The notes under the pieces: model-generated
Database searches by the model: none
What the model was told of the DNA's origin: nothing
The model's input: only the letters and a program-made list of their open reading frames with translations
In this document: positions 1,741 to 48,949 of the stretch, piece by piece
Layout of the letters: each line of letters begins with the position of its first letter
Numbering within the stretch: position 1 is the first letter of the stretch
Virus record (IMG/VR): IMGVR_UViG_3300045988_108212
Coordinates: 93,286-157,285 of that record
Direction: 5' to 3' (one strand)
Length of the DNA stretch: 64,000 nt
Source of the DNA: a virus
Position numbers and translations under genes: made by a program

Positions 1741-1878
1741 TGGAAACAACAGGAATCGAACCTGTGTCGGCAATTTATATGTGATGAAAATTAAATGTAA
1801 ATAAATAAAAATACTTATATGGAGGTAGAAAAATGAATGTTTATGTATTGCCTGCTCTACCAACTGAGCTATGTTTCC
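1741..1878 (-). tRNA. tRNA-like gene with a 74-nt insertion in the anticodon loop (CAU-type loop start); intron-bearing or disrupted
   Basis: The reverse complement reads GGAAACA-TA-GCTC-AGTTGGTA-GAGC-A-GGCAA-[74 nt, >80% AT]-TTGCC-GAC-ACAGG-TTCGATT-CCTGT-TGTTTCC-A. All four stems pair perfectly. Confidence 0.5.
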
Positions 1879-34059: not shown

Positions 34060-34608
34060 TTAATTTACAATTGAAATGTAGCCGTTGAATGCTGTAGAAT
34101 TAACATACCAACCACGAATATTCATTTCACGACTGAATTTTTCATAATCAAAATAATTTGATACACTTGTTGGAATATTTTCAAGTAGTCCAGTATTATC
34201 AACATACTGATAAGCAACGTCTTTCATGCTGTCGCAATCTGAATAGATGATATAGTTACCATCTTCTACAATGTCAAAGGCTTCATCTAAAGTTGATGTT
34301 TCTGAACTAATTTCATTAAATACCGTTCTTTCTTCATCTGAAAGTTCTGAATACCGTTCTCCAATTTCCTGGAGTCTTGAAAGTGGTGTGTATTCTCCTA
34401 AGTCCGTTGTATCAAACTCTGCATCATAATCAGCGATAAAGTATTCTTCATATTCTGCACCAATGCCGATTTCTTTCAAGATGTTTTTGATTTCGTCTTC
34501 ATCAGCAAGTGGGAAATTTACAGCTTTATCAATGATTTCTCCTTCATTGTATTTCCCTAAGTTTGTAACCCATGCTGTAAAACCGTCTTTATTTGTGTTC
34601 GTGTTCAT
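34060..34608 (-). CDS. ardA: ArdA anti-restriction protein (DNA mimic)
   Basis: WVTNLGKYNEGEIIDKAVNFP..EYEEYFIADYD..IIYSDCDSMKDVAYQYVDNTGLLENIPTSVSNYFDYEKFSREMN matches the Tn916 Orf18/ArdA blocks (LGKYNEGEL, EYEEY.I.DYE, I.HSDCDDMYDVA.YY.E.TG). Confidence 0.9.
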   Translation of the reverse strand: MNTNTNKDGFTAWVTNLGKYNEGEIIDKAVNFPLADEDEIKNILKEIGIGAEYEEYFIADYDAEFDTTDLGEYTPLSRLQEIGERYSELSDEERTVFNEISSETSTLDEAFDIVEDGNYIIYSDCDSMKDVAYQYVDNTGLLENIPTSVSNYFDYEKFSREMNIRGWYVNSTAFNGYISIVN

Positions 34609-34968: not shown

Positions 34969-35124
34969 CTTTACTCCTTTACTCTTTTGAGATTTTAATT
35001 CAGTTATAAGTTCATGAATGGATACAAATAACAATATCGTAGACAGAGGTCAACTAAATGTGCATACTACGCAAGGCGTTAATTTGTACCCCATCATCGA
35101 CCTATAAAAGAATTATGAAATCTT

Positions 35125-35144
35125 AACCAGCTTTATAACTGGTT
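35125..35144. repeat. hairpin motif AACCAG-N8-CTGGTT (copy 1 of 2)
   Basis: TTAACCAGCTTTATAACTGGT here. A near-identical TAACCAGCATCTTAACTGGT lies at 35603-35622. The two copies bracket the structured leader region. Confidence 0.6.
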
Positions 35145-35252
35145 GATTCATTGTTAATCTTTAGGTTTTGATGTTTTATTCAAAAAAGATTTTTCAGAGT
35201 GTTTATAAAACACCCTTAAGTTATACCGTTCAATGTAATGTATAGTGTTCTG

Positions 35253-35364
35253 CGTTGCTGGTGTCTCCCGACATTAGCCATACATACTAACTAATGGGTT
35301 ATTAGCTAAATAACCTTAATGTCACTTATTGCATCGGGCGACACTCTACCCTATCATCTTTTTT
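35253..35364 (+). ncRNA. candidate structured small RNA 1 (antisense to early-operon leader)
   Basis: A 10/11-bp closing stem GTGTCTCCCGA (35261-71) / TCGGGCGACAC (35334-44) encloses the nested hairpins GGTTATT-agcta-AATAACC and CATTAG..CTAATG. A T6 run lies at 35359-64, and TATAGT is upstream at 35241. Confidence 0.35.
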
Positions 35365-35494
35365 ACATGGGTTATGGCGTTACCATGAGTTTTTATAGAA
35401 GTATTCTTTTCTTCTTTTATTCGGTTGTGTTTAACCGTTTTAAATAGGGATTTAAAAAGTCTGAATTGACTTTTTAGAAAAGATATGGTATCCT

Positions 35495-35589
35495 AGAATT
35501 GTCTAGGTTCAGGGATACCGAAATCCCAAAGATGATATGGGCAGAAAGCCTTTTTTGATTAAGGCTGAACGCCTTTATCATCTTTTTTT
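35495..35589 (+). ncRNA. candidate structured small RNA 2 with strong intrinsic terminator
   Basis: TTGACT-17-TATCCT at 35466-35494. GGTATCC/GGATACC (35487/35513) competes with GGGAT-accgaa-ATCCC. The terminator stem is GATGATA (35531) ... TATCATC (35576) plus T7. Confidence 0.4.
35531..35589 (+). terminator. rho-independent terminator (plus strand) inside a minus-strand leader
   Basis: GATGATA...TATCATC with inner hairpin AGCCTT-N8-AAGGCT, followed by TTTTTTT. Confidence 0.65.
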
Positions 35590-35602
35590 ATTTAATTTTT
35601 GT

Positions 35603-35622
35603 AACCAGCATCTTAACTGGTA
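35603..35622. repeat. hairpin motif AACCAG-N8-CTGGT (copy 2 of 2)
   Basis: See 35125-35144. Confidence 0.6.
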
Positions 35623-35696
35623 TCAAGTTAAGTGAGATTTTAAACTCTGCGGATCAATCAAGATCGTTTGTTTTGCTTCTCTTTTAACTTGTCTTT

Positions 35697-35726
35697 ATTA
35701 TATCATGTATTTACTTGATTTGTCAA
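35697..35726 (-). promoter_or_regulatory. consensus sigma-70 promoter for the leftward early arm
   Basis: The minus strand reads TTGACA-18 nt-TATAAT. No minus-strand gene lies between it and 34968, implying a leader of about 720 nt. Confidence 0.65.
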
Positions 35727-35798
35727 GTATTTATTTAATATTTTTTAAAAATATTTGTTTACTATTTAATATAATAAATAAAGGAAGGTAAAACATAC

Positions 35799-36035
35799 AT
35801 GATATATATAGATAATACTCAATTGATCGCAAGTATAAAAGAATTACAATTAAGAAAGAATTATACGCAAAAACAACTTGCAACGGCTATTGGTATCTCA
35901 CCAGCTAATTTATCTAATATCCTAAAAAACAAAAAGTCATTGACGTTTGAAGATGTCAATAAAATTTGTAATGGTTTAGGCTACAAATTGGACTATCGTT
36001 TTATAGATACAGATAATACTAGCAAAGATCAATAA
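35799..36035 (+). CDS. XRE-family helix-turn-helix transcriptional regulator
   Basis: LRKNYTQKQLATAIGISPANLSNILKNKKSLTFEDVNKICNGLGYKL. AAAGGAAGG SD. Confidence 0.85.
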   Translation: MIYIDNTQLIASIKELQLRKNYTQKQLATAIGISPANLSNILKNKKSLTFEDVNKICNGLGYKLDYRFIDTDNTSKDQ

Positions 36036-36622
36036 TAACGTGTACTCTGCCCCTATGCACTCATAAAGCCTTATACAATCGTTTAAATGCTTTAGAATGT
36101 AACTATGCAAAGATCATTTGTATTATATAGAAGAAACACGTATAAAACAGTATTATAAACGCAATATATAAGTATATCTATTATAGCATAATGTATGACA
36201 CTTGCGTATGCCGTAGGTGTACTCTTATATAGTATTATGTATATGTAGTATATTTATTAATTGTGTCTTTAGGGTGCATGGTATATAGTTGTATATTATA
36301 CTATTATATGTTATTATATAGTTATCATAGTTTGGATCTAGTTTTGCGTGGTAGTATGAGATATACTATCATGTTATATTTGTATATGTATTTGTTTATG
36401 TATGATAGTTTGATCTTGTATGATTGCTATATATTAATTTGTTTAGTTTATATTTTAATTTGTGTAGTTATCGCAAGTGCTGGAAGTCTGCCAAACATCG
36501 AACACTTGTTTGGTTAGTAGTGTAGCATGGTTTTATGGTGTTGTCAAGTGGTATAGATTATAGGTATATGTAGGTGGTTGGTATAGAGTGAAGTTATAGG
36601 CGGGTTGGTGGCGTGGATAGAC

Positions 36623-36668
36623 TATCCAACACATTATGTAAAAGTGTTGGATAATAGACAAGTGTTGG
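36623..36668. repeat. iteron-like CCAACAC/GTGTTGG set including a 10-bp inverted repeat
   Basis: TATCCAACAC (36623-32) / GTGTTGGATA (36644-53) form an inverted repeat. A third AAGTGTTGG copy lies at 36660-68. Confidence 0.7.
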
Positions 36669-36686
36669 TTAACAGTCGTTTGCTAG

Positions 36687-36704
36687 TAGTCCGATATCGG
36701 ACTA
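36687..36704. repeat. perfect 18-bp palindrome TAGTCCGATATCGGACTA
   Basis: Read directly from the sequence. The flanks GTCGTT (36675) / AACGAC (36706) extend it imperfectly. Confidence 0.9.
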
Positions 36705-36998
36705 TAACGACACGTACAGAATATTGTACAGTTTGTACACTATATTAAATAACCATATAACGTAGCATCCTATACTATATGGAAATAGTTGGAAATTATT
36801 TGCACTCTGCCTCCTGATCTTCCTACAAATTATTTACAGTTATTTATAAAATTCATTTGATAAAATTATAGTATTTCAAATAGATTTATCCAGTATTTAC
36901 CATAGTTTTTATATATTTATAACTATACTATGTAGGGGGTATATTTACATATTTCACAATATAGTTTTTATACTTTTTGCCTTGATGTCTTCAACACG

Positions 36999-37148
36999 CC
37001 AAATATCTCCCTTTCATTTTTTAATCTATTATTTTCCAATTTTTTAATCACTTTCTTCCAATTTCTTCCTTTTTTCTTAAATCCATCAAAATCCCCACTA
37101 TTCTTGCACTTTCACTACTTTTCTCCTATCTCATTAAAAAAACATTAC
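36999..37148 (+). other. G-free polypyrimidine/A tract (107 nt with no G, then one G, then 42 nt with no G)
   Basis: Hand count: there is no g between 36999 and 37105 or between 37107 and 37148. Confidence 0.9.
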
Positions 37149-37862
37149 GTCGTAAGTGACGTCGTTCAACTTCCCTATTTAAGCCACTTTTGACAATTAC
37201 ACCTTACCCAAAATGACCAGATTTTTTACTTTTTCGCACCTAACACACCACTTAATCCCTCATAAATACTGACTTCAGACGACCTCACTCAAATTTTATT
37301 GCCATTTTGACCAAAATCAGATCTTTTACACACCTCTTTTTTGCAAGTTTCCATTTTCAAAACACTACCACAAACTTCTCTTCTCTCCTTTATTTTTACA
37401 TTACATCTTAAAAACCCAAAAATTCATTTTTGTACCCATGCCTGACGACCTCACTTTTTGATTGTCAAAACAGGGTGTCACCAATTTCGTACCTATCTTG
37501 CATCAAAACCCTTATAAATACTGAATAAAACGACAATTACTCTTCTACTCCTCTTCTCTCTTATCCCAAGCAAACATGCAAAATTATTGCGCAGTTTAGG
37601 AGAGGCAGGATAAGCGTTAGCGTTCCTTCTCGACATTGCTACCGCAGGTAATACCACTTACACTCTTCCATTTCTCAAAAGATCATGTTATACTGCCATT
37701 GAGGGCTTAGGCAACCCTTAGCATCTACGCCAAAACAGACATAAAAAATGATATTAAGGTATTCAAGTTGGTACCCCAGATAATGTATCTGCAAATGCAT
37801 TATCAGAATTTATGTTCAGGGAAATTTCTCTGGGCATATTTTTTACACCTTACAATCTATCA

Positions 37863-37891
37863 TTGCAATAAAGTATCTTATATGATATAAT
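37863..37891 (+). promoter_or_regulatory. near-consensus sigma-70 promoter inside the gene desert
   Basis: TTGCAA (37863-68), a 17-nt spacer, then TATAAT (37886-91). It points toward the three ~55-nt repeats. Confidence 0.5.
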
Positions 37892-38104
37892 CGTGTATAT
37901 GGCATTGAACAAGACATTCAATGTATTCCATGTATCAATAAAAACAATCCCTCGCAAGGCAAAACATTTTAATAAGATGGAATCCCTTGAACTATCAACC
38001 AGATTTGTGACAGATAGTGAACACAAGCAATCTATCAATCAGACACTCAGCCTTGCAAGCAGGGATTATTTTTATGCAAAAAATTATCTTTCATACAGTC
38101 CTAT

Positions 38105-38625
38105 AAAAAATCGCACTCTACAGATCATAAATCCATTTTACCTATCTACTCTAACAACTCTCCACGACATACCACAAAATCCATATTTGACGGATATACT
38201 CTTCTAAACATTGAGAATCACATATAATCAACACCAACCATTATGCAGCAGATTCCCTAGTCAGACATTTGCCACAACCCATCTTAGATCCACGGTAAAA
38301 ATATCTCTTCATTATACCATTAAAAAATGTACTCTGAGAGAGCAAATTTCAATTCTACTATCTTACCCTAACAAGTTATCGCCAGAACATATAAAATGGA
38401 AATTAGCATCCGATTTCTCGCCTAAACATTGCAAAAGTACCCTAAGTAATTTCACACATAACCTGGCTCTCGCACTAATATCACATAAGGGGTACACTTT
38501 ACATTGAAAAGATCATTGTCGGCACTAGTATATATTGTACATGAAAAAGTACAATGATATTTCCTATGAAAAAAATGCACCTGAGAGATCATAAATCAAT
38601 TTTACACCTCTCCCCTACCAACAAT
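38105..38625 (+). repeat. three degenerate ~55-nt direct repeats, period ~217 and ~247 nt
   Basis: The copies lie at 38105-38158, 38322-38375 and 38569-38625. The shared core is AAAAAATGCAC(T)CTGAGAGATCATAAATCAATTTTAC...CTAAC(A)A, about 70% pairwise by eye. Confidence 0.7.
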
Positions 38626-38738
38626 ACCAATTTACCTATAGAATTGAAATTCACCACAAAAAGCTCTTCTAAATGTACAGAATCCAGTATAAAGAAAATT
38701 ACATTCTACCCAGATAAAAATATAACTAACTTCCCTCA

Positions 38739-38776
38739 TTGCACCCGTTGACAAGGTGCAAAAAGTATGTTAAAAT
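38739..38776 (+). promoter_or_regulatory. promoter with its -35 box embedded in a 7-bp inverted repeat; twin of 12909-12946
   Basis: TTGCACC-cg-TTGACA-a-GGTGCAA-aaagtatgt-TAAAAT (17-nt spacer). The ATG of the 38783 ORF sits 7 nt after the -10 box. Confidence 0.65.
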
Positions 38777-38782
38777 ACCAAT

Positions 38783-39175
38783 ATGCTTAAAAAGAAAACA
38801 AAGAAAGAAAGGATATATATTGTGAAGAATATGAGTAATTTAAAAAGTAATTGCAATGAAGAGACAAAACTCTCTTTCAATTTGCCACCAAATATTACAC
38901 CAGATATGATATGCCAGATAATCAATTCTGGTAATCTGTGCAAAGATTCTTTTAAAGAATATATGTTGGCAGATACCAGAAAAGAAATTGCAATGAAGAT
39001 TCATAGTTATTGGAAAGATAATTCTGAGATATTATATCCAAGATCTTCAAGATTATATATGTGGTTGTACTACAATGAGATAACCAGAAAAAGATTACGG
39101 ACATTGCAGGAAGAAAATATAAAACAATTATCATATATGATCTACATGATGAAAAACAAAGAAAGGAGAAATTAA
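38783..39175 (+). CDS. hypothetical basic protein (start uncertain: leaderless ATG 38783, or GTG 38822 / ATG 38831)
   Basis: 130-aa ORF, the first plus-strand gene after the desert. It has no SD before 38783; AAAGGA lies before the GTG. Confidence 0.55.
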   Translation: MLKKKTKKERIYIVKNMSNLKSNCNEETKLSFNLPPNITPDMICQIINSGNLCKDSFKEYMLADTRKEIAMKIHSYWKDNSEILYPRSSRLYMWLYYNEITRKRLRTLQEENIKQLSYMIYMMKNKERRN

Positions 39176-39178
39176 AAG

Positions 39179-39265
39179 ATGATCAATACAATTGTCAAGA
39201 CAGATGAAAGATCAAAAGAGAAAAGAGATGAGCGTCAGCGAACACGGAATTTTTTCGTTGAGTAA
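39179..39265 (+). CDS. possible 28-aa basic micro-ORF
   Basis: AAAGGAGAAATTAAAAG-ATG; product MINTIVKTDERSKEKRDERQRTRNFFVE. It overlaps an AGCGTCAGCGA repeat. Confidence 0.25.
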   Translation: MINTIVKTDERSKEKRDERQRTRNFFVE

Positions 39266-39499
39266 GCGTCAGCGACCGAAACAAAAAATAGGTAGGGAAT
39301 ATTTATATTCCCGTGTTTTGTATAGGTAATATGTCCTATATAGATAACACGTCTCTTATAGTTAATATTGTCGGTTAAGCGATTAAAAATTATTTGTCTA
39401 GCTATTTAGACGTGTCTATCAAATCAACACCTGTTGTACTTATGCTGAGATTTTGTCTACACACAAGTTAATAACCAAGATAGCAAAGGAGAATTATTT

Positions 39500-40363
39500 A
39501 TGAAACAAATTAAACCCGAAGGAAAACGACAGAACTTTCATGTTATTCCACATTTTCTAATCTACAATCCAGAGTTTGGAGAAAAAAGAATATTATTTCA
39601 AATGGCGTTAGCAAACAATATGATGTTAAAATGGAATCCAGAAAAACCACCGATTCTTTATAATACAAATTTACTCGTGCGCCAAATGAGCTTTTCACAG
39701 AATTACAACTCATCAGGCATCAATGAACAAGTTAAAAAATTTATGAAATTAATTGAAGACAAAGGCTATGTTAAAAAAGTTGCATCACCAATCAAGCAGC
39801 TTACATTATATAATGTTCCGAATGAAAACACTGAAGAAAATTTATTCCTACAAAAGAAACATTACGGTATAATTTATAACTTCGAGTTCTTATACTTGCT
39901 CCGATTACATAAGACGAATTCAATGCCATATAATACCAGAATATGGAATGTATTACTCGTGTTAGCATATCTAAGATACAATATTATCATGCGAGTTTCA
40001 GAAGATTTTAATTCGAAAAAAAATAGAAAGAAAAGACCAGAAACATATGTGAAAACATATGATGATATCGGAAAGGAACTTGGATTACATCGAACTACTA
40101 TTGAAAAATGTGTTAAGGTTCTTGATGAGGCAGGGATTATCTATCATGAGCAATTATTCAAAACTCTTCCTGGCACTGATAGAGTTGTATATAGTCGAAT
40201 TGCTTTTACAAATAAATATAAATATGACGGAACTCAAGAATATCGCTTGGATTCCAATTACGATTATAAAAAAGAAATCGAAGAAATTAAATTACAGTTA
40301 AAACCTTACGGAGAATTTGGGAAAGCAACTAATGCTTCTTCTGATTTAGAAAACCTTGATTAA
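39500..40363 (+). CDS. hypothetical protein with C-terminal winged-helix-like segment
   Basis: AAAGGAGAATTATTT-ATG. YDDIGKELGLHRTTIEKCVKVLDEAGIIY looks like a wHTH. Confidence 0.65.
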   Translation: MKQIKPEGKRQNFHVIPHFLIYNPEFGEKRILFQMALANNMMLKWNPEKPPILYNTNLLVRQMSFSQNYNSSGINEQVKKFMKLIEDKGYVKKVASPIKQLTLYNVPNENTEENLFLQKKHYGIIYNFEFLYLLRLHKTNSMPYNTRIWNVLLVLAYLRYNIIMRVSEDFNSKKNRKKRPETYVKTYDDIGKELGLHRTTIEKCVKVLDEAGIIYHEQLFKTLPGTDRVVYSRIAFTNKYKYDGTQEYRLDSNYDYKKEIEEIKLQLKPYGEFGKATNASSDLENLD

Positions 40364-40458
40364 TCGCTTTGTTGGCAGCATTGTGAGTAATCAAGTAAAC
40401 ACAAATTAAAAATTAACTAAACAATAATATACATAACGAAAGGATCTAACAAATTTTC

Positions 40459-40896
40459 ATGACAAAACAATTAAATACAGAACTCAAAGACTTATTGGCT
40501 ACTTCTGATCGTATCTCATTTGAGAACATTACACAAGAACAGTTCGCAGTCAAACTTGCAGCACAGAGACTACGCACTACTCCTTCTTCAAAGAAAAGAT
40601 TAAAAAGAAATGATGGTATTCGAGCAAGAGATAGTACAACAGATTCTGTAGTCTATAAGCCAACGCATGACCAGTATTATCGTATTTTCATCAACGATAT
40701 TTTAAGCAATATTCGATCAGGTGGCACTGATTATTGTTTTAAATGGTATCAAGTAAAAGAATTGCTGCGGTTTCACAAGCACACGTTGATATGCAAAATG
40801 GTCAAAGAAAGCACGAGTGCCCGTGGCATTTATTTCAAGGTATCTCTTCCCAACGATTGGCGAAAGATTGAGAAGAATATTATACCAGAACAGTAA
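40459..40896 (+). CDS. hypothetical protein
   Basis: 145-aa ORF with GAAAGGATC SD. Confidence 0.65.
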   Translation: MTKQLNTELKDLLATSDRISFENITQEQFAVKLAAQRLRTTPSSKKRLKRNDGIRARDSTTDSVVYKPTHDQYYRIFINDILSNIRSGGTDYCFKWYQVKELLRFHKHTLICKMVKESTSARGIYFKVSLPNDWRKIEKNIIPEQ

Positions 40897-40973
40897 GCAT
40901 GAATTACTGAAATACATAATAAACACAAATTAATAATTAAACTAAACAAATACATAAATAAGGAGACTTTTCA

Positions 40974-41402
40974 ATGAAATCCAGAAAATTTAATAAAGAA
41001 AAATACACAGAACAGAAGGCAATGAAGAAAAAGAATCGTCCACAGCGCAGTTATACAAGCCTTGGGACAACCATTGAGATTCCGATCAATCACAGAAAGC
41101 ATAAAATTTTAGCTACTGCCCGACATAATGATGAAAACGGCAAAGAGGATGAAACATTTACAGTGACACTTTCAATTGCCAAAGAGACAGGAGATTTCCC
41201 AATCTGGCATCAGTTTGAAGATGATTTACAAATCACGGCAAAGAGATATTCTCTTAGAACTGCTCTGATGGCTAAGGTAGTTGAGCTTGAAACAGCTGGC
41301 GATCTTGATATACATATTGAATCTGCTGATACTATCTACAAGCTTCTTGAATGTGCAGGCGATTACCTAAGCGGTAAATCAAATACAGTGGAGGTGCAGT
41401 AG
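40974..41402 (+). CDS. hypothetical protein
   Basis: 142-aa ORF with AAGGAGAC SD. Confidence 0.65.
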   Translation: MKSRKFNKEKYTEQKAMKKKNRPQRSYTSLGTTIEIPINHRKHKILATARHNDENGKEDETFTVTLSIAKETGDFPIWHQFEDDLQITAKRYSLRTALMAKVVELETAGDLDIHIESADTIYKLLECAGDYLSGKSNTVEVQ

Positions 41403-41403
41403 A

Positions 41404-41613
41404 ATGATAGTTTTATTTACGATTCTGATTGGTGGTGCCGTACTGTTTTGCGCAGGAATGTGTCGTTCTGCTGCTACCAGAGAAATGATTACGGAAGATA
41501 TTTATTGCCAGATCAAAGCAGAAAGTTTACATAAAAACGCTTTCAGGAAACCAAGAACTGAAATGGAACAGATGACAGACATGATTTTTAAAGAAAGCGA
41601 GGATGATGAGTAG
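41404..41613 (+). CDS. small membrane protein
   Basis: MIVLFTILIGGAVLFCAGMC TM helix; coupled to the upstream stop. Confidence 0.6.
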   Translation: MIVLFTILIGGAVLFCAGMCRSAATREMITEDIYCQIKAESLHKNAFRKPRTEMEQMTDMIFKESEDDE

Positions 41614-41614
41614 A

Positions 41615-44431
41615 ATGGCATTAGATAAACAAATTCATGTACATTCTGTGGATACAGGGCATTTTTACACAGAAAAAGAAAAGGCTTTACATAAGCAAAA
41701 TATGTACATTCGACAGGAACGTGCAGCAATACATAATCAATTAAAGGATTTAGAAAAACAAGCAAAAAGGCAAGGGTTTTCTGATCAGCAGATTAAAAAT
41801 ATCGAAGCAATTCATATGCGTAGACAAGATATTATTGACACCATATATGATAAAAACTTTAAAGAGCTAAGACAGTCTGATGATATACTTGATCAGATCC
41901 AATATTGGTCAACGCTTAAAAGTTATAAAACTTTCCCTGCGAAAGATGTCAAAGAAAAACTACTGCTAAGGCTCAAGCGGGCGGTTGATACAAATGTAAA
42001 TCTTGCAAAGCATGAGCATGAAGATCGAGTAAAAATTCGATGTTTTTATGAAAAAGATTTGAATGATACAAATACTGTATCTCTGTTTGAGTCATTCTTA
42101 AGCAGGACAATTCAAGCAGAAACCGATATGTTATGCGAAGATTTAGTTATTGTCCAAGTATATTACTTCGATATTTTCAAAGATCTTTGTTTTCATGGTA
42201 TGAACTACTGCGATAAAGATGGCGTAATTACAAAATATAGATACTTCACCTCTTCTGCTGGTCAGATTCGTACAAAAAAAGCTGTATTCATCAAGGAAGA
42301 AACATGGCAGAAATATGAGAAAACATTAATGTGTGGACTCACAATCGACAAAATTAATGATGAAAAACATCAAGGGAACAATGTTAACAAACACTTAGCC
42401 TACCTTGCATTGACTAATTCAGCGACTGATTTATGGGCAGATTTTGACATTGACAAATCAATCGTTGTAGATGATATGGAGACTATGGTTTCAGGACTTT
42501 TTGATTCTATTGATGATAAGACGTATGAAATTAAGAGGGTTTCTTCTTCTGTTCCAATTCCTCACATGGACGGATGCGGAATCGCAGACCCAAGTGTATT
42601 AAATGCAAATGCAATGGTGCGTATCCCTTGGATCAAAGGACTTCTTGGGAAATTTGCATTTATTGAGCTGATCAAAGAAAAAGGTTGGTCGCCAATTATT
42701 ACAGATATTTACGGCAAAGAACATAATGTTATTGAAGAAGATATTAAAATCATTTTCACAAAAAGTCAGTTTAAGATGTGGAAATATTATGATTCATGGG
42801 AAGAATATAAACAATATTATCACGAATTTGGATGTACCGCAGGTTTGTGTAATGTTGAGGAAGAATACATAAAAAATGCTTCTATAAATTATCAGATGTT
42901 GCAGACGCTCACTGATATTACAGATACAGAAATTGAAACATTGAGTAAAAGATCAGTTAAAAAAATCTCTACACTTTGTGATTCTGTACAACATATGCAG
43001 AGAACTTTGGGAATCAATCCATATAATACTCACATGACACCTTTTCAGGAAGCTGTAAAAATCTATCCAAATTTATTAAATGATACATATGCGAAAGACA
43101 CTATCAGAGAAATTAAGAATAGTATGCTGAAGAAATATCGCAGTGGAAAACTAGATGTTTATGGAAAATATACTTTCTTAATTCCAGATTTATATGCAGT
43201 TTGTGAATACTACTTTGGGCATATTGAAAATCCTAAAGGATTGCTTGATGATCATGAAGTGTACTGCAAGATGTTTCCTAAAAATGATAAGCTTGATTGT
43301 CTGAGAAGCCCTCATTTATATAAGGAACATGCAGTAAGATTTAACATTGCTTACGATGCATACGGAGAAAGAAAAGCCGAAATTTCAAAATGGTTTACTA
43401 CAAATGCGTTGTATACGAGCGTGCATGATTTAATCTCACGAATTTTACAATTTGACAATGATGGAGACAAGGCATTGGTGGTCGCAGATAAAAATTTCGT
43501 TGATATTGCAGAAAGAAATATGAATAATGTTGTACCTTTGTATTATGAAATGAAAAAAGCAAAATCTGTTTTGATTACTCCAGAAAATATTTATAATGGA
43601 TTGATTCATGCGTTTACTGGAGGTAATATCGGACCTTATAGCAATAACATTACAAAGATTTGGAACAGTGATATTTTTGTTAATGGGTCTGAGGAAGATA
43701 AACAAGAAGCCATCGACACCGTAAAACTTTTGTGTATGGAAAATAATTTCGTTATTGATTATGCAAAAACTTTATACAAGCCTGTTCGTCCTGAAAAGGT
43801 TGCTAAACAAATTGCAAAATTTACACAGAAGAAACTTCCTCACTTTTTTGTGTATGCAAAAGACAAGATGGAATCTCAGGTAGAAGAACGAAATCAGAGT
43901 TTTGTTAATAAGTTGTATGACATTGTTCCGAATGTGCAGATTAATACACGGAAACTTAAGATTGATGAAATTGAATACGATAAAATGATGTTCGATGTTA
44001 ATACAAAAGTTGATAAAAATGTCATAGAAATCTATGATCGACTGAATAAACAGTACAGATATAAATTCAATATTGTTGATGAACGTGTGGCAAACGATTC
44101 ATTTGTAAAGCAGACGATTTTAAAAGAATTTGAAAAGACTGGATACTCTGCAATTGAAATCACAGACATGTTGGTTAAACATCTGTACTCTAAAAACAAA
44201 CGATACAAACAATTGTTGTGGTTTGTGTATGGAGAATACATTGTTGAAAATTTAAAACATCATGTTGTAATCAAACCAACAAAAAAAGTACAATGCGTTG
44301 ATTGTGGAGAACTATTTGAAGTGTACGTTCGTAATGCCAAAAAGGTACGATGTGATTCTTGTCAGAAAGTTTTTAGAAAACAATTTCAGAAGGAATTAAT
44401 GAAGAAAAGACGTCAAAATACAGAATGTTAG
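41615..44431 (+). CDS. YonO/QDE-1-like single-subunit (two-barrel) RNA polymerase candidate with C-terminal zinc ribbon
   Basis: About 940 aa. CLRSPHLYKEH (43301-) is followed ~47 aa later by QFDNDGDKALVVAD (DNDGD = 43454-43468). This matches the R-x-P..H ... DxDGD spacing of YonO and the eukaryotic-type RdRP family. The C-terminus carries CVDCG..CDSCQ. Confidence 0.55.
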   Translation: MALDKQIHVHSVDTGHFYTEKEKALHKQNMYIRQERAAIHNQLKDLEKQAKRQGFSDQQIKNIEAIHMRRQDIIDTIYDKNFKELRQSDDILDQIQYWSTLKSYKTFPAKDVKEKLLLRLKRAVDTNVNLAKHEHEDRVKIRCFYEKDLNDTNTVSLFESFLSRTIQAETDMLCEDLVIVQVYYFDIFKDLCFHGMNYCDKDGVITKYRYFTSSAGQIRTKKAVFIKEETWQKYEKTLMCGLTIDKINDEKHQGNNVNKHLAYLALTNSATDLWADFDIDKSIVVDDMETMVSGLFDSIDDKTYEIKRVSSSVPIPHMDGCGIADPSVLNANAMVRIPWIKGLLGKFAFIELIKEKGWSPIITDIYGKEHNVIEEDIKIIFTKSQFKMWKYYDSWEEYKQYYHEFGCTAGLCNVEEEYIKNASINYQMLQTLTDITDTEIETLSKRSVKKISTLCDSVQHMQRTLGINPYNTHMTPFQEAVKIYPNLLNDTYAKDTIREIKNSMLKKYRSGKLDVYGKYTFLIPDLYAVCEYYFGHIENPKGLLDDHEVYCKMFPKNDKLDCLRSPHLYKEHAVRFNIAYDAYGERKAEISKWFTTNALYTSVHDLISRILQFDNDGDKALVVADKNFVDIAERNMNNVVPLYYEMKKAKSVLITPENIYNGLIHAFTGGNIGPYSNNITKIWNSDIFVNGSEEDKQEAIDTVKLLCMENNFVIDYAKTLYKPVRPEKVAKQIAKFTQKKLPHFFVYAKDKMESQVEERNQSFVNKLYDIVPNVQINTRKLKIDEIEYDKMMFDVNTKVDKNVIEIYDRLNKQYRYKFNIVDERVANDSFVKQTILKEFEKTGYSAIEITDMLVKHLYSKNKRYKQLLWFVYGEYIVENLKHHVVIKPTKKVQCVDCGELFEVYVRNAKKVRCDSCQKVFRKQFQKELMKKRRQNTEC

Positions 44432-46887: not shown

Positions 46888-46979
46888 GTACGGGTGGCAG
46901 AGCTGGTTTAATGCGCAGGATTGCTAATCCTGTATACGTACGAATATGCGTATCCTGGGGTCGTAGCCCAGTCCGTACG
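46888..46979 (+). tRNA. tRNA-Ser(GCU), type II
   Basis: Acceptor GTACGGG/TCCGTAC, a 3-bp D stem, and anticodon arm CAGGA-TTGCTAA-TCCTG. A 7-bp variable arm ATACGTA..TATGCGTAT is present. The T arm is CTGGG-GTCGTAG-CCCAG, with an atypical T loop. Confidence 0.7.
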
Positions 46980-46985
46980 CTAAAT

Positions 46986-47060
46986 CGCACCATCGTCTAA
47001 ATGGTTTTAGGACACATCCCTTTCACGGATGCAATACGAGTTCGACTCTCGTTGGTGTGA
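46986..47060 (+). tRNA. tRNA-Glu(UUC)
   Basis: Acceptor CGCACCA/TGGTGTG, D stem GTCT/GGAC, anticodon arm CATCC-CTTTCAC-GGATG and T arm ACGAG-TTCGACT-CTCGT. Confidence 0.75.
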
Positions 47061-47100
47061 TGTTTGTCCTACAATGTTCTTCGGACTTGTGGGCTAATAT

Positions 47101-47184
47101 CCCTGTTTATACTGCTAAGGAGACAGGCAAAACTGTAAATTTTGCGGCTTCGGTCACGAGTGGGTTCGATTCCCTCAACAGGGA
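47101..47184 (+). tRNA. tRNA-Tyr(GUA), type II
   Basis: Acceptor CCCTGTT/AACAGGG and anticodon arm CAAAA-CTGTAAA-TTTTG. The variable arm is GGC-TTCG-GTC and the T loop is TTCGATT. The D region is one nt longer than canonical. Confidence 0.6.
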
Positions 47185-47225
47185 TGATTAGGTTAGTAAC
47201 TATACGATAGATTAACCAAAAAATA

Positions 47226-47307
47226 TGCGAACACCCTGATGGTTGGTGGATATTGGAATGTATACCTCTTCTGATATTCTGATGGAGTTCATCACTTCAG
47301 TTCGCCC
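47226..47307 (+). pseudogene. degenerate tRNA-like element with 16-nt 'anticodon' loop
   Basis: A 6-bp acceptor GCGAAC/GTTCGC, a T-like arm TGGAG-TTCATCA-CTTCA and the stem GGAAT/ATTCT around GUAUACCUCUUCUGAU. The D arm is poor. Confidence 0.25.
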
Positions 47308-47398
47308 TAGAAAAGCAATACTTACACACTGTTGCTTTTTAGAAATATGTATTGTCTCGCCAGTGTGTACGTATGAGAGGCAAATACATATTCGTTAT

Positions 47399-47472
47399 TG
47401 ACATGTAGCTCAATTGGACAGAGCACAACGCTACGGACGTTGGTGTTGCAGGTTCGATTCCTGTCGTGTCAG
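47399..47472 (+). tRNA. tRNA-Arg(ACG)
   Basis: Acceptor TGACATG/CGTGTCA, D arm GCTC-AATTGGACA-GAGC, anticodon arm CAACG-CTACGGA-CGTTG and T arm GCAGG-TTCGATT-CCTGT. Confidence 0.85.
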
Positions 47473-47475
47473 TTT

Positions 47476-47559
47476 TCCTATATACCTCAGTTGGCAGAGG
47501 GTCATCACAGCAAGGATAACATTAGATGAAAGTCGCTGGTTCGAATCCAGCTGTAGGAA
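47476..47559 (+). tRNA. tRNA-like gene with canonical body but an 18-nt anticodon loop (identity undetermined)
   Basis: TCCTATA-TA-CCTC-AGTTGGCA-GAGG-G-TCATC-[ACAGCAAGGATAACATTA]-GATGA-AAGTC-GCTGG-TTCGAAT-CCAGC-TGTAGGA-A. Confidence 0.6.
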
Positions 47560-47565
47560 TTATAT

Positions 47566-47638
47566 TCTCGTATAGCTCAACTGGTAGAGCGGATGGCTGT
47601 TAACCATCATGTCGGAGGTTCAAATCCTTCTACGAGAG
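47566..47638 (+). tRNA. tRNA-Asn(GUU)
   Basis: Acceptor TCTCGTA/TACGAGA, D arm GCTC-AACTGGTA-GAGC, anticodon arm GATGG-CTGTTAA-CCATC and T arm GGAGG-TTCAAAT-CCTTC. Confidence 0.9.
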
Positions 47639-48228
47639 TTTGTATTTTAAACATAAGCAACTCGGTTATAAAACTCAATGCCATGAGTCCGAGAGATATT
47701 CTAGGCACATATGTCGAATTGGAGAGATACATTGTACGGATACGTTCTTTGTGTCTCTTTTTATGTCGGAGTGATCTGATATGGACAAGAGAGAAACTCT
47801 CAAGCAAATGGATATTGTGCAGCATTTTGGTCTGGTTAACGCACAGAACTTTTCGCTACAATAATAGACGCTCCTGTGGAGAATAATCCACTTCAATGCG
47901 TACTCTGGCAGGTACGTAAAAGGTGGAAAAGCCAAATAATGTAGTTTGATGTGAATCTGTTCAAAAGACAGTGTATAAGAAAAGTCGCTGGTATGTCGCT
48001 CAAGTCAGTTAAGGGTAAGTTCAAATTTATAAAAACATTCTAAAACTTAATTCTGAACGGTGGGTTGACATTGCATGTATTGATCATGTCATAGAACTGG
48101 TTTTTTAGACTTAGGTAAGAAGTTAGAGGTCGCTCCTCGAAGCTCAGACTTATCTACTATGTTGCAGAATAAACTGTTCCACAAATGACTGTAAGGTGAA
48201 GACCTGCTTTAAAATTAAAATACATTTA
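47639..48228 (+). ncRNA. candidate large structured non-coding RNA embedded in the tRNA array
   Basis: This 590-nt tRNA-to-tRNA gap has no credible ORF. GC is about 40-43% in sampled lines versus about 30% in flanking genes. It has many nested helices, such as CTCGG..CCGAG (47661/47689), AGAGATAC..GTGTCTCT (47723/47751), GTGGA-gaataa-TCCAC and GCGTAC-N8-GTACG (47875-47920). Confidence 0.4.
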
Positions 48229-48300
48229 AGGGGTATCGCCAAGTGGTAAGGCACAGCACTTTGACTGCTGTATTCACTGGTTCAAATCCAGTTATCCCTG
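48229..48300 (+). tRNA. tRNA-Gln(UUG)
   Basis: Acceptor AGGGGTA/TATCCCT, anticodon arm CAGCA-CTTTGAC-TGCTG and T arm ACTGG-TTCAAAT-CCAGT. Confidence 0.85.
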
Positions 48301-48301
48301 T

Positions 48302-48376
48302 CGCAGAATGGAGAAGTTTGGTTATCTCGTCAGGTTCATGCCCTGAAGATCGGTGGTTCAAATCCACCTTCTGCTA
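48302..48376 (+). tRNA. tRNA-Met or Ile2 (CAU)
   Basis: D stem GAGA/TCTC, anticodon arm TCAGG-TTCATGC-CCTGA and T arm GGTGG-TTCAAAT-CCACC. The acceptor is GCAGAA/TTCTGC with a C1xU72 mismatch. Confidence 0.75.
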
Positions 48377-48408
48377 TTTTTCTAGGTTTCATTTTATTTT
48401 TCATATAG

Positions 48409-48440
48409 TATCCTTTATTGGTAGGGACATTTATGTCCTT
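48409..48440 (+). other. 13-bp hairpin between tRNAs (possible processing signal)
   Basis: TATTGGTAGGGAC-ATTTAT-GTCCTTACCAATA, with no T-run. Confidence 0.6.
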
Positions 48441-48447
48441 ACCAATA

Positions 48448-48523
48448 TTGCACAGTGGAAAAGTTGGTAAATTCGCTCGTTCCATTTGGTTCTGGAGACG
48501 TAGGTTCAAATCCTACCTGTGCA
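48448..48523 (+). tRNA. tRNA-like gene with irregular anticodon arm (best fold gives 8-nt loop UUUGGUUC; UGG?)
   Basis: Perfect acceptor TGCACAG/CTGTGCA and T arm GTAGG-TTCAAAT-CCTAC, with a normal 76-nt length. The only 5-bp anticodon stem (TTCCA/TGGAG) encloses 8 nt and leaves an abnormal junction. Confidence 0.5.
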
Positions 48524-48622
48524 ATCAAAGAGCTGTTTGATTGGCAGTTCTTTTTCAACAAAGATTTTTTCTCATTGTTAGCATATAGTGGATGGATATT
48601 AATTCATCTACTACTCCTTTCT

Positions 48623-48692
48623 GGCTTGGTAGTTCATTGGTAGAACGCAATACTTTTAATATTGTGAAGCGGTTCAAATCCGTTCCAAGCCC
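48623..48692 (+). tRNA. tRNA-Lys(UUU)
   Basis: Acceptor GGCTTGG/CCAAGCC, D arm GTTC-ATTGGTA-GAAC, anticodon arm CAATA-CTTTTAA-TATTG and T arm AGCGG-TTCAAAT-CCGTT. The variable loop is short. Confidence 0.8.
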
Positions 48693-48940: not shown

Positions 48941-48949
48941 GTGTTCTCT

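What the first reader, a model, noticed from the sequence alone, without database searches (positions are those of the whole stretch)
36036..38782. 2.7-kb gene desert with mirror-image base skew and a 107-nt stretch containing no G
No credible ORF exists between the XRE gene (ends 36035) and 38783; the ORF-track hits there are low-complexity.

By hand count, 36241-36600 has about 6% C on the plus strand (22/360), while 36961-37560 has about 6.5% G (39/600). This includes 36999-37105 with zero G, and only one G in 150 nt. Read outward from about 36.8 kb, both arms are therefore G-starved C/A/T sequence.

This is opposite to the usual leading-strand or coding-strand purine bias, so neither ordinary replication skew nor decayed genes explains it well.

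Possible explanations include:
- long G-poor, unstructured ncRNAs (rut-like or protein-sponge RNAs);
- promoters and recognition arrays for the phage's own YonO-like RNAP;
- the packaging or terminal region of a circularly assembled linear genome.

A near-consensus promoter (37863-37891) fires rightward inside the region. A 12-nt exact repeat, GACGACCTCACT, occurs at 37278 and 37444.
Basis: seen in the sequence. Interest (0 to 1): 0.7.

Follow-up and report, generated by a model that had tools for sequence, protein, structure and literature searches.

The report
Phage genome-end region with skewed flanks
The "gene desert" is the genome-end (terminal-repeat and packaging) region of an SPbeta-like phage, and its mirror-image G/C-skewed flanks are a conserved, apparently undescribed hallmark of this phage group whose purpose is still unknown.

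Summary
The base counts are exact, the lowest-C and lowest-G windows of the 64 kb both lie here, and no ORF in the gap is conserved in relatives.

The region sits where SPbeta has its mapped packaging start (a ~250-bp block between yonR and yonP) and where phage Perkons has a mapped 264-bp direct terminal repeat. In both, this lies just upstream of the YonO-like RNA polymerase operon.

The window shares the signature motif GGGGGTATATTTACAT (36935-36950). It also shares the layout: C-poor arm (36241-36640), neutral ~300-bp block (~36683-36987), G-poor arm (36988-37560).

The same layout recurs in 21 lineages, including SPbeta, Perkons and prophages of Paenibacillus, Brevibacillus, Bacillus, Neobacillus and Mediterraneibacter.

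Arm sequences are not conserved. The right arm has two unalignable alleles in this clade, but both keep the composition. The substitution spectrum suggests selection rather than mutation bias.

The YonO promoter-array option is not. The G-poor RNA option is partly supported, because SPbeta's ncr1052 maps to the homologous arm.

The right third of the desert holds a conserved candidate sRNA and three degenerate tandem units. The identity is ordinary; the skewed arms are a new, unexplained detail.

The parts
35799..36035 (+). XRE-type HTH gene bordering the desert on the left. It occupies the same side as SPbeta yonR but points the other way.
   Evidence: Pfam HTH_3, E 4e-12; PHROG transcriptional regulators.
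36036..36240 (+). Region downstream of the XRE gene, with terminator-like hairpins (for example 36198-36220). Composition is ordinary.
36241..36640 (.). Left arm. The plus strand is C-poor (6-8% C) and G/T-rich, so the strand read leftward away from the block is G-poor. It is 76-94% identical among close relatives.
   Evidence: Equivalent arms in 21 lineages average 6-10% C and up to 27% G.
36683..36987 (.). Central block of about 305 bp with neutral skew, predicted to be the terminal repeat or packaging-start block (boundaries +/- 20 nt; the right boundary could be as far as ~37055). On the left it holds the palindrome AGTCCGATATCGGACT followed by CTATAACGAC.
   Evidence: Aligned by position and motifs to SPbeta's 250-bp pac fragment (L050 2554-2803) and Perkons's 264-bp repeat. 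One contig (L011) ends 6 nt from the predicted left boundary. Other contig ends are scattered.
36935..36950 (+). Signature motif GGGGGTATATTTACAT. In SPbeta it lies 48 nt inside the right boundary of the block.
   Evidence: GGGGGT is invariant in a 5-lineage alignment. The extended motif is present in most of the 21 lineages. 11 of 16 motif matches in 63 prophage loci sit at skew switches in the top 0.2% of positions. GGGGG occurs only 5 times in the window.
36988..37560 (.). Right arm. The plus strand is G-poor (6.5% G) and C/T-rich. It contains G-free runs at 36999-37105 and 37348-37431. It starts with TCTTCAACAC, which resembles the ACTTCCATTTCCACAC sequence just outside the block in SPbeta. 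Together with the right ~90 nt of the block, it exists as two unalignable alleles (~700 and ~825 bp) in the clade, both G-poor.
37155..37455 (.). G-containing islands in the right arm: GACGACCTCACT at 37278 and 37444, and an inverted near-copy at 37155-37166. The other allele has its own inverted pair, GTCGTCGAGAGA / TCTCTCGACGAC.
   Evidence: Not significant by chance statistics alone.
37575..37848 (+). Conserved segment of normal composition that ends in a strong intrinsic terminator (37811-37838 plus a T run).
   Evidence: Fold z-score -1.87. 86-96% identity in relatives.
37863..38078 (+). Candidate sRNA gene of about 180 nt: promoter 37863-37891, transcript about 37897-38075, terminator 38051-38064.
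   Evidence: MFE -43.6 kcal/mol, z -4.03, 0 of 200 shuffles fold as well. 98-99% identical in 18 relatives. No Rfam family.
38095..38790 (+). Three degenerate tandem units of 220-250 bp. The second holds another copy of the motif (GGGGTACACTTTACAT, 38489-38504). The third ends in the promoter 38748-38776 for the rightward operon.
   Evidence: ORFs here are broken in all relatives.
38822..39175 (+). First gene of the rightward operon that leads to the YonO-like polymerase (41603-44431). It more likely starts at GTG 38822 than at ATG 38783.
   Evidence: Direct reading of the sequence. Promoter position. RNAP homology.

Best explanation
The desert is the cis-acting genome-end region of an SPbeta-like temperate phage of about 150-165 kb.

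At its centre is a block of about 300 bp (~36683-36987). This block is the counterpart of SPbeta's ~250-bp packaging-start fragment and of Perkons's 264-bp direct terminal repeat. It is where terminase most likely opens the concatemer, and it carries the conserved motif GGGGGTATATTTACAT.

The block is flanked by two arms of 300-600 bp in which G and C are sorted onto opposite strands, so the strand read away from the block is G-poor on both sides.

Shown: position, motif, layout, family-wide recurrence, absence of genes, and composition kept while sequence turns over.

Inferred: the arms are selected for composition rather than sequence, and they act with the genome ends. My preferred reading (about 35%) is that they are DNA-level flanks of the terminase cut sites. 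They keep duplex stability, but neither strand can form G:C hairpins. They also carry almost no G/C-containing palindromic sites during end processing or DNA entry. A close second (about 30%) is that they are outward-transcribed, unstructured, C-rich leader RNAs.

The right third of the desert (37575-38790) is separate regulatory non-coding DNA: a terminator, a candidate sRNA, three tandem units and the operon promoter.

The confidence given (0.75) is for the identity of the region as the genome-end element with conserved skewed flanks, not for any one reading of what the arms do.
For: - Synteny: the gap lies at the divergence of a leftward and a rightward gene module, upstream of a YonO-like RNAP (41-49% identity to the Perkons, SPbeta-group and Clostridium phage D-1873 proteins).
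- SPbeta's genome opening point lies between yonR and yonP (Kohm et al., bioRxiv 10.1101/2021.11.22.469490). Its published 250-bp fragment is exactly the neutral block between a C-poor and a G-poor arm in SPBc2 and SPbetaL1. The BUCT082 record starts at that boundary.
- Perkons has a PhageTerm-mapped 264-bp terminal repeat 1.4 kb upstream of its polymerase operon (PMC13245101). Both its flanks are G-poor when read away from the repeat.
- The motif GGGGG(G)-N5-TTTACAT is shared.
- In 63 prophage loci found with the RNAP, 11 of 16 motif matches sit at skew switches of 0.96-1.52, each in the top 0.2% of positions.
- A meta-profile of 21 lineages gives 6-10% C left of the block, a neutral block, and 7% G with 27-28% C to the right.
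- Composition rather than sequence is kept: there are two unalignable right-arm alleles that are both G-poor, allelic left arms in the SPbeta group, and no shared repeated 6-mer beyond the null.
- Polymorphism among relatives is roughly strand-symmetric per site. Observed C/T (0.90) and G/A (0.88) on the enriched strands exceed the ratios implied by the substitution rates (0.30 and 0.55). This argues for selection.
- No genes.
Against: - No reads are available, so termini are not mapped for this phage.
- Metagenomic contig ends near the block are scattered. Only two independent contigs end at the same spot.
- Outside the GGGGG motif, the block aligns poorly with SPbeta and Perkons. The boundary motifs are only partial matches in the window.
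- Kohm et al. interpret SPbeta as headful packaging from a pac site, while Perkons is annotated with fixed terminal repeats, so the exact end type is unsettled.
- In every end-processing model, the part that becomes single-stranded is the repeat itself, which is not skewed. This weakens the hairpin-avoidance reading of the arms.
- About 40 of the 63 RNAP-bearing loci showed no such switch within the sequence held.
- The selection inference uses majority-rule polarisation and ignores recombination.
Confidence: 0.75

Rival explanations
1. The arms work as RNA. Promoters in or at the edge of the block drive divergent transcripts whose first 300-600 nt are G-poor, C-rich and unstructured. These act as Rho-loading (rut-like) leaders or attenuators. 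They would keep the polymerase operon and the leftward early genes silent in lysogens, or serve some other RNA role.
For: - Outward-strand RNAs are the four least structured of 636 400-nt windows, with C about four times G.
- C is enriched, not only G depleted.
- In SPbeta lysogens a 183-nt RNA, ncr1052 (=ncr44), was detected between yonR and yonP on the yonP strand (PMC2965217).
- With either coordinate offset that I could justify, it maps to L050 2790-2972 or 2839-3021, which is inside the G-poor arm and just downstream of a TGgTAAAAT extended -10 at 2770-2778.
- A strong plus-strand terminator lies downstream of the window's right arm (37811-37838).
Against: - ncr1052 rests on 2 cDNA reads, and my coordinate mapping partly uses a remembered gene coordinate.
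- Promoter-like sites in the region are no more frequent than in shuffles (26 found, 26.9 expected).
- No promoter is conserved across lineages at the block edge.
- The arms start at the block boundaries in all lineages, which ties them to the DNA ends rather than to transcription units.
- In the window, leftward transcription would run antisense through the XRE gene.
- My simple scan found no conserved terminator after the arms in other lineages.
Confidence: 0.3
2. The region is, or also is, the replication origin. The AT-rich block would be the unwinding element, and the arms, transcribed inward, would give G-rich RNAs that form R-loops and prime DNA synthesis, as in ColE1, T4 oriF or mitochondrial origins.
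For: - The genome-scale GC skew changes sign here, as at an origin: cumulative skew has its minimum near 38.7 kb.
- The 287-aa ORF at 39500-40363 weakly matches phage replication-initiator families (E 5e-5).
- DnaA-box clusters lie left of the block in two lineages (L073 and L059).
- G-rich non-template strands facing the block on both sides are the classic R-loop arrangement (established knowledge).
Against: - There are no DnaA boxes within one mismatch in the window's region, and only a 2.2-fold enrichment overall, driven by two loci.
- No inward promoters are evident.
- Plus-strand terminator-like hairpins lie between the XRE gene and the left arm.
- The local skew polarity is the reverse of an origin.
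- SPbeta has no Rep-like gene next to its block.
Confidence: 0.1
3. The skew is a neutral by-product of strand-biased mutation. For example, cytosine deamination could act on the strand that is repeatedly single-stranded next to the genome ends during resection or strand displacement.
For: The mirror symmetry about the ends and the lack of sequence conservation fit a process that starts at the ends. The left arm's C-poor strand is also T-rich (45% T).
Against: - The depleted base is replaced by its complement on the same strand (G rises to 27% and C to 27-28%, from a baseline of about 16%), which deamination does not produce.
- The right arm's C-poor strand is A-rich, not T-rich.
- Per-site substitution rates among relatives are close to strand-symmetric, and mutation pressure runs against the enriched base.
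Confidence: 0.08
4. The desert is decayed coding DNA or holds unrecognised genes, for example in another genetic code.
For: In the G-poor stretch only TAA can act as a stop on the plus strand, so long ORFs appear (37893-38207 and 38211-38507 are in one frame, separated by a single TAA).
Against: - The ORFs are interrupted by stops or frameshifts in nearly all 18 relatives.
- None matches a PHROG family, and blastn of the region finds nothing in 50,697 phage records.
- The tRNA set contains no suppressor.
- The same layout, without genes, occurs in SPbeta and Perkons.
Confidence: 0.02

Closest known systems
SPbeta pac region: the ~250-bp 'genome opening' fragment between yonR and yonP (Kohm et al., bioRxiv 10.1101/2021.11.22.469490; Fink and Zahler 1982, as cited there)
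   Same: It has the same position relative to the YonO-like polymerase operon and an XRE-type gene. It shares the GGGGGTATATTTACAT motif (identical 16-mer) and the same C-poor arm, neutral block, G-poor arm layout.
   Different: Outside the motif the sequences do not align. The window's arms are longer (400 and ~570 nt, against about 280-300). A further 1.2 kb of non-coding DNA and five genes lie between the arm and the polymerase gene. The XRE gene points the other way. In the passages I read, the papers do not mention the skewed arms.
Psychrobacillus phage Perkons, 264-bp short direct terminal repeat (PMC13245101; GenBank MT325768)
   Same: The repeat lies 1.4 kb upstream of a YonO-like polymerase operon, contains GGGGGTAT 38 nt from its inner end, and has G-poor flanks on both sides when read away from it.
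   Different: In Perkons the termini were mapped from reads; here they are only predicted. Perkons's left-side arm begins about 140 nt from the repeat and is A/T-richer.
Phage T7 terminal repeat with the adjacent short-repeat arrays SRL and SRR (Dunn and Studier 1983, from my own knowledge; sequence checked here)
   Same: It is a short exact terminal repeat followed on the left by a non-coding, strand-asymmetric stretch. T7 161-400 is 10.8% G and 27.9% C, and its function is likewise unexplained.
   Different: T7's stretch is an array of a conserved heptamer (CCTAAAG), whereas these arms share no repeated motif. T7's right side is not mirrored. SP6 and phiKMV show only weak skews next to their repeats.
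Rho utilisation (rut) regions of Rho-dependent terminators
   Same: They are long, C-rich, G-poor and predicted to be unstructured when transcribed outward.
   Different: The arms are several times longer than typical rut sites and paired in mirror image around a DNA-end element. Neither transcription nor Rho dependence has been shown.

Membership tests
SPbeta-like phage terminal region (pac block / short direct terminal repeat) | Lies at the divergence point upstream of the YonO-like RNA polymerase operon | tested here: met
   RNAP at 41603-44431 and gene orientation. Same arrangement in SPbetaL1, SPBc2 and Perkons.
SPbeta-like phage terminal region (pac block / short direct terminal repeat) | Motif GGGGG(G)-N5-TTTACAT near the inner (right) end of the block | tested here: met
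   36935-36950 is identical to the SPbeta 16-mer. The motif co-occurs with the skew switch in 11 further lineages.
SPbeta-like phage terminal region (pac block / short direct terminal repeat) | Boundary sequences: right TAGC|ACTTCCATTTCCACAC; left boundary about 20 nt before GTTAY-N4-6-CGAT | tested here: inconclusive
   The window has GATG|TCTTCAACAC at the expected +48 offset and CTATAACGAC on the left. These are partial matches only.
SPbeta-like phage terminal region (pac block / short direct terminal repeat) | C-poor arm and G-poor arm directly flanking the block | tested here: met
SPbeta-like phage terminal region (pac block / short direct terminal repeat) | Physical DNA ends or a packaging start at the block in virion DNA | not testable with these tools
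   No reads are available. Contig ends give only a weak hint (L011 ends 6 nt from the predicted boundary; L155 and L160 end at the same spot; the others are scattered).
T7-type terminal repeat with SRL/SRR arrays | Arrays of a conserved short repeat next to the terminal repeat | tested here: not met
   No 6-mer recurs across arms beyond a Markov null: best is 5 arms, null mean 4.1, null maximum 6.
Rho-dependent terminator / rut region | C-rich, G-poor, unstructured RNA stretch of 80 nt or more | tested here: met
   Composition. Weakest predicted folding in the window.
Rho-dependent terminator / rut region | The stretch is transcribed, and termination depends on Rho | not testable with these tools
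   The only evidence is the SPbeta ncr1052 detection in the literature.
Replication origin (DnaA boxes or iterons plus an AT-rich unwinding element) | Clustered initiator binding sites | tested here: not met
   There is no DnaA box within one mismatch in the 800 nt around the block in the window. The tandem units at 38095-38790 are 220-250 bp, not iteron-sized.
Known RNA families (Rfam 15) | Match at the gathering score | tested here: not met
   Nothing in 35000-39600 even at E<=5 beyond chance-level hits. Nothing in the SPbeta gap or the Perkons end.
Protein-coding or decayed genes | ORFs conserved in relatives, or homologous to known proteins | tested here: not met

The most novel reading that the evidence does not exclude
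The G/C strand-sorted arms are a selected cis-element, defined by composition rather than sequence, that flanks the genome ends of SPbeta-like phages across the Bacillota. Their function follows from strand asymmetry itself: either they support terminal-repeat processing and DNA entry, or they act as paired Rho-loading leaders that lock the phage polymerase operon. Such an element could be recognised by composition alone and used to find the genome ends of these prophages.
Probability: 0.4. Interest if true: 0.65.

Novelty: new variant of a known kind. Interest (0 to 1): 0.5.

Why it matters
SPbeta is a long-standing model temperate phage, yet its packaging signal and machinery are still uncharacterised.

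This analysis gives a precise, family-wide sequence signature for the genome end: the GGGGG-N5-TTTACAT motif, the boundary sequences, and the mirrored G/C skew. That signature locates the ends of SPbeta-like prophages in many Bacillota genomes directly from sequence.

The arms are an unusual case of non-coding DNA in which composition is conserved while sequence is free to change. SPbeta is genetically tractable, so the question of what strand-sorted G and C do next to a phage genome end can be tested directly.

For this window, the practical result is that the "desert" needs no exotic explanation for its existence, only for its skew.

Tried and rejected
- Known RNA families: Rfam at gathering and permissive thresholds found nothing in the region.
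- DNA similarity to 50,697 phage records: none.
- Hidden or decayed genes: rejected.
- Shared short repeats in the arms (a T7 SRL-like array): none beyond the null.
- Enrichment of CG or ACGA contexts for the few G residues in the arms: weak and inconsistent.
- Extra structure, or avoidance of structure, beyond what composition gives: z-scores 0.0 and -0.85.
- DnaA-box origin: supported in only two lineages, not in the window.
- B. subtilis Chi (AGCGG) arrays on the 3'-ended strands of the SPbeta arms: none seen on reading the sequences.
- Similarity of the motif to the mapped YonO start site. I placed Forrest et al.'s start site (2225998) on SPBc2, but my coordinate offset is uncertain by about 50 nt and the resemblance (CTATGGGTGACAT) is not robust. 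ATGGGTAC occurs at chance frequency in the window. I dropped this line.
- Contig-end pile-ups as a proxy for physical ends: inconclusive in IMG/VR and in 45 metagenome contigs.
- Conserved intrinsic terminators distal to the arms: my simple scan found none, and it also missed the window's own terminator, so it says little.
- More distant YonO-like phages (Enterocloster, Thomasclavelia): AT-rich gaps without the clear mirror.
- Other short-terminal-repeat phages (SP6, phiKMV, T7): no comparable mirrored arms.
Full report

Yes. The hand counts reproduce exactly: 22 C in 36241-36600, 39 G in 36961-37560, and no G in 36999-37105.

That 107-nt run is the longest G-free run in the window. The next longest (84 nt, 37348-37431) is in the same arm, and the longest elsewhere is 67 nt. 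The lowest-C and lowest-G 360-nt windows of the whole 64 kb both fall in this region.

GC skew runs from +0.55 to -0.62 across about 800 nt. Its sign is opposite to that of the flanking gene modules, which are negative on the left and positive on the right. A left-minus-right skew score has its window-wide maximum (1.2) at 36670-36690.

Only G and C are mirrored. T exceeds A on the plus strand in both arms.

The gap has no credible gene:
- ORFs of 40 aa or more are broken by stops or frameshifts in nearly all 18 close relatives. The one exception simply overlaps a 98-99% identical stretch.
- None matches PHROGs.
- blastn finds nothing among 50,697 phage records.
- No Rfam family matches.

**2. 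Context**

The window comes from an SPbeta-like phage.
- Genes at 1-35 kb run leftward, and genes from 38.8 kb run rightward.
- The 942-aa protein at 41603-44431 is a YonO-type single-chain RNA polymerase. It is 41-49% identical to those of Perkons, SPbeta-group phages and Clostridium phage D-1873.
- The left neighbour of the gap is an XRE-type HTH gene.
- Thirty-one close relatives exist in IMG/VR on contigs of up to 166 kb.

Conservation in those relatives varies along the gap:
- 37550-41620 is about 95% conserved, non-coding part included.
- 36007-36913 is 76-94% conserved.
- 36913-37550, the G-poor core, is replaced in most relatives by an unalignable segment of about 825 bp that is also G-poor (10-11% G, 25% C).

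**3. What it corresponds to**

Kohm et al. (bioRxiv 10.1101/2021.11.22.469490) place SPbeta's genome opening and packaging start between yonR (an XRE-like gene) and yonP (just upstream of yonO). They describe a sharp ~250-bp block there. Their supplement gives its sequence.

In SPBc2 and SPbetaL1 that block is exactly the skew-neutral stretch between a C-poor arm (GC skew up to +0.78) and a G-poor arm (-0.57). The GenBank record of phage BUCT082 starts at the block's first base.

Psychrobacillus phage Perkons has a YonO-like polymerase 41% identical to the window's. It carries a PhageTerm-mapped 264-bp short direct terminal repeat 1.4 kb upstream of its polymerase operon (PMC13245101). The DNA on both sides of that repeat is G-poor when read away from it, down to 1-2% G per 100 nt.

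The window, both alleles of its clade, SPbeta and Perkons all share GGGGGT near the right end of the block. The window's 16-mer, GGGGGTATATTTACAT, is identical to SPbeta's.

**4. How general it is**

A scan of one genome per species with the RNAP returned 63 loci. About 20 of them show a strong skew switch 1.3-7.5 kb upstream of the polymerase gene, with GGGGG 150-250 nt to the right of the switch point. These include Paenibacillus, Brevibacillus, Bacillus, Neobacillus, Mediterraneibacter and uncultured Eubacteriales.

Of 16 matches to GGGGG-N3-8-T[TA]ACA[TA] in these loci, 11 sit at switches scoring 0.96-1.52. Each is in the top 0.2% of 23,199 positions.

Many lineages also share two further features:
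- The sequence TAGC|ACTTCCATTTCCACAC about 48 nt after the motif, where | is the right boundary of the block in SPbeta and Perkons.
- A GTTAY-N4-6-CGAT element about 20 nt inside the left boundary.

The window has only partial versions of both: GATG|TCTTCAACAC and CTATAACGAC. From these I predict the block at about 36683-36987, with roughly 20 nt of uncertainty. The right boundary could be as far as about 37055.

A meta-profile of 21 lineages aligned on the motif gives:

| Position relative to motif | Composition |
|---|---|
| -500 to -200 | C 6-10%, G up to 27% |
| the block | neutral |
| +100 to +400 | G 7%, C 27-28% |

More distant YonO-like phages (Enterocloster, Thomasclavelia) do not show the clear mirror. 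Other short-terminal-repeat phages tested (T7, SP6, phiKMV) do not either. T7 does have a G-poor stretch (10.8% G, 27.9% C) directly after its left repeat.

**5. Nature of the arms**

The arms are compositional, not motif arrays:
- No 6-mer recurs across arms beyond a composition-matched null.
- The few G residues show no consistent context.
- Each arm folds as weakly as its shuffles do (z 0.0 and -0.85).
- As RNA, the outward-reading strands are the four least structured of 636 400-nt windows in the window, whereas the inward strands fold normally because of G-U pairs.

Sequence turns over while composition stays. This clade has two right-arm alleles, and the SPbeta group has allelic left arms.

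Among close relatives, per-site substitution rates are roughly strand-symmetric. In the ~825-bp right-arm allele (L001 type), for example, A>G is 0.187 against T>C 0.157, and G>A is 0.438 against C>T 0.516. The enriched base is far above the level those rates imply:
- In the right arm, C/T is 0.90 observed against about 0.30 implied.
- In the left arm, G/A is 0.88 observed against about 0.55 implied.

In addition, the depleted base is replaced by its complement on the same strand. Together these points argue for selection rather than deamination-type mutation bias. The estimate is rough, because it uses majority-rule polarity and ignores recombination.

**6. Mechanism**

What is shown is the identity of the region as the counterpart of the SPbeta pac block and the Perkons terminal repeat, and the family-wide arm-block-arm design. 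What the arms do is inference. I weigh four readings.

(a) *DNA-level flanks of the terminase cut sites* (about 35%). The arms begin at the block boundaries in all lineages, and the mirror symmetry matches the two DNA ends made by cutting. With G and C sorted onto opposite strands, GC content is kept (about 33%), but neither strand can form G:C hairpins. Nearly all palindromic sites that contain G or C are excluded as well. Against this reading, the segment that becomes single-stranded in the standard end-processing models is the repeat itself, and the repeat is not skewed.

(b) *Outward, unstructured, C-rich leader RNAs*, for example Rho-loading regions that insulate the polymerase operon (about 30%). 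Irnov et al. detected a 183-nt RNA in SPbeta lysogens, ncr1052 (=ncr44), on the yonP strand between yonR and yonP. They mapped their reads on NC_000964.3.
- I used my remembered coordinate for yonP and cross-checked it with two other RNAs from their table against the SPBc2 annotation.
- ncr1052 then maps to L050 2839-3021, or to 2790-2972 with a +49 correction.
- Both placements lie in the G-poor arm, just downstream of a TGgTAAAAT extended -10.
- The support is only 2 cDNA reads, and nothing is known for the window's phage.

(c) *Inward R-loop priming, or an origin* (about 10%). The genome-scale skew does switch here like an origin, and the 287-aa ORF weakly resembles replication initiators. 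However, DnaA boxes are absent in the window, and no inward promoters are evident.

(d) *Mutational by-product* (about 8%). This is disfavoured and by the A/T pattern.

**7. The rest of the desert**

The stretch 37575-38790 is conserved non-coding DNA of more ordinary composition.
- A segment ends in a strong terminator at 37811-37838.
- A candidate sRNA of about 180 nt has its own promoter and terminator. Its fold z-score is -4.03, and it is 98-99% identical in relatives.
- Three degenerate tandem units of 220-250 bp follow. The second contains another copy of the GGGG-N5-TTTACAT motif at 38489.
- The promoter at 38748-38776 serves the rightward operon. Its first gene more likely starts at GTG 38822.

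Second copies of the motif also occur upstream of the polymerase operon in Perkons, L080, L063 and L065. The motif could therefore be a regulatory or terminase-binding site rather than strictly an end marker.

**8. Verdict**

The promoter-array option is not supported. The G-poor RNA option remains open.

The region is a new member of a known kind of element, the SPbeta-type genome end. It carries a conserved and apparently selected compositional feature that I did not find described in the passages I read of the papers on SPbeta and Perkons. T7's left-end array is only a partial analogue.

Interest is moderate. The existence of the desert is explained. The reason for the mirror skew is not, but it is directly testable in SPbeta.

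Noticed in passing
window 47637-48225 (+), within 46888-48692: A full-length ROOL RNA (308.8 bits) is embedded in an array of ten tRNA genes, downstream of the YonO-like polymerase gene and upstream of the large rightward ORFs that begin at 48941.
   Followed up: no
window 1741-1878 (-): An Rfam tRNA match spans 138 nt but is not called by ARAGORN. It may be a tRNA gene interrupted by an intron or insertion.
   Followed up: no
window 37863-38078 (+): Candidate sRNA of about 180 nt with a sigma-A-type promoter and an intrinsic terminator. Fold z-score is -4.03, it is 98-99% identical in 18 relatives, and it matches no Rfam family.
   Followed up: partly
window 38095-38790 (+): Three degenerate tandem units of 220-250 bp with a well-conserved first 60 nt (CCTAT-AAAAAAT-GCAC-CTGAGAGATCATAAATCAATTTTAC). 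They are not coding in relatives, and their function is unknown.
   Followed up: partly
window 38489-38504 (+); also L034 775, L080 7151, L063 9090, L065 1149: Second, same-strand copies of the GGGG-N5-TTTACAT motif lie between the genome-end block and the polymerase operon in several lineages. The motif may therefore be a promoter or protein-binding site.
   Followed up: partly
window 34060-34608 (-): An ArdA anti-restriction gene (Pfam E 2.6e-30) lies 1.6 kb from the left arm of the end region. This is consistent with early expression from the DNA end that enters first.
   Followed up: no
window 39500-40363 (+): A 287-aa protein with weak matches to phage replication-initiator families (PHROG 8102, E 4.9e-5; PHROG 428, E 4.6e-4). 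It is 98-100% identical in 31 IMG/VR contigs.
   Followed up: no
L073 about 3327-3368; L059 about 3432-3474: Clusters of perfect or near-perfect DnaA boxes (TGTGGATAA) lie immediately left of the genome-end block in a Brevibacillus prophage and a Mediterraneibacter prophage. They are absent from most other lineages and from the window.
   Followed up: partly
L051 910-975 (-) and L050 630-733 (+) (SPBc2): Rfam finds a DUF3800-VIII RNA in the long non-coding stretch between yonN and yonK of SPbeta, and the SR6 antitoxin near yonT. The yonR-yonP gap itself has no Rfam match.
   Followed up: no
SPbeta-group records (e.g. H3-H11): In many SPbeta-group phages the YonO gene matches in two pieces. In the BUCT083 record (H4), a GIY-YIG nuclease is annotated under the split match. 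This suggests an intron or homing-endonuclease insertion in the polymerase gene. The window's copy is uninterrupted.
   Followed up: no
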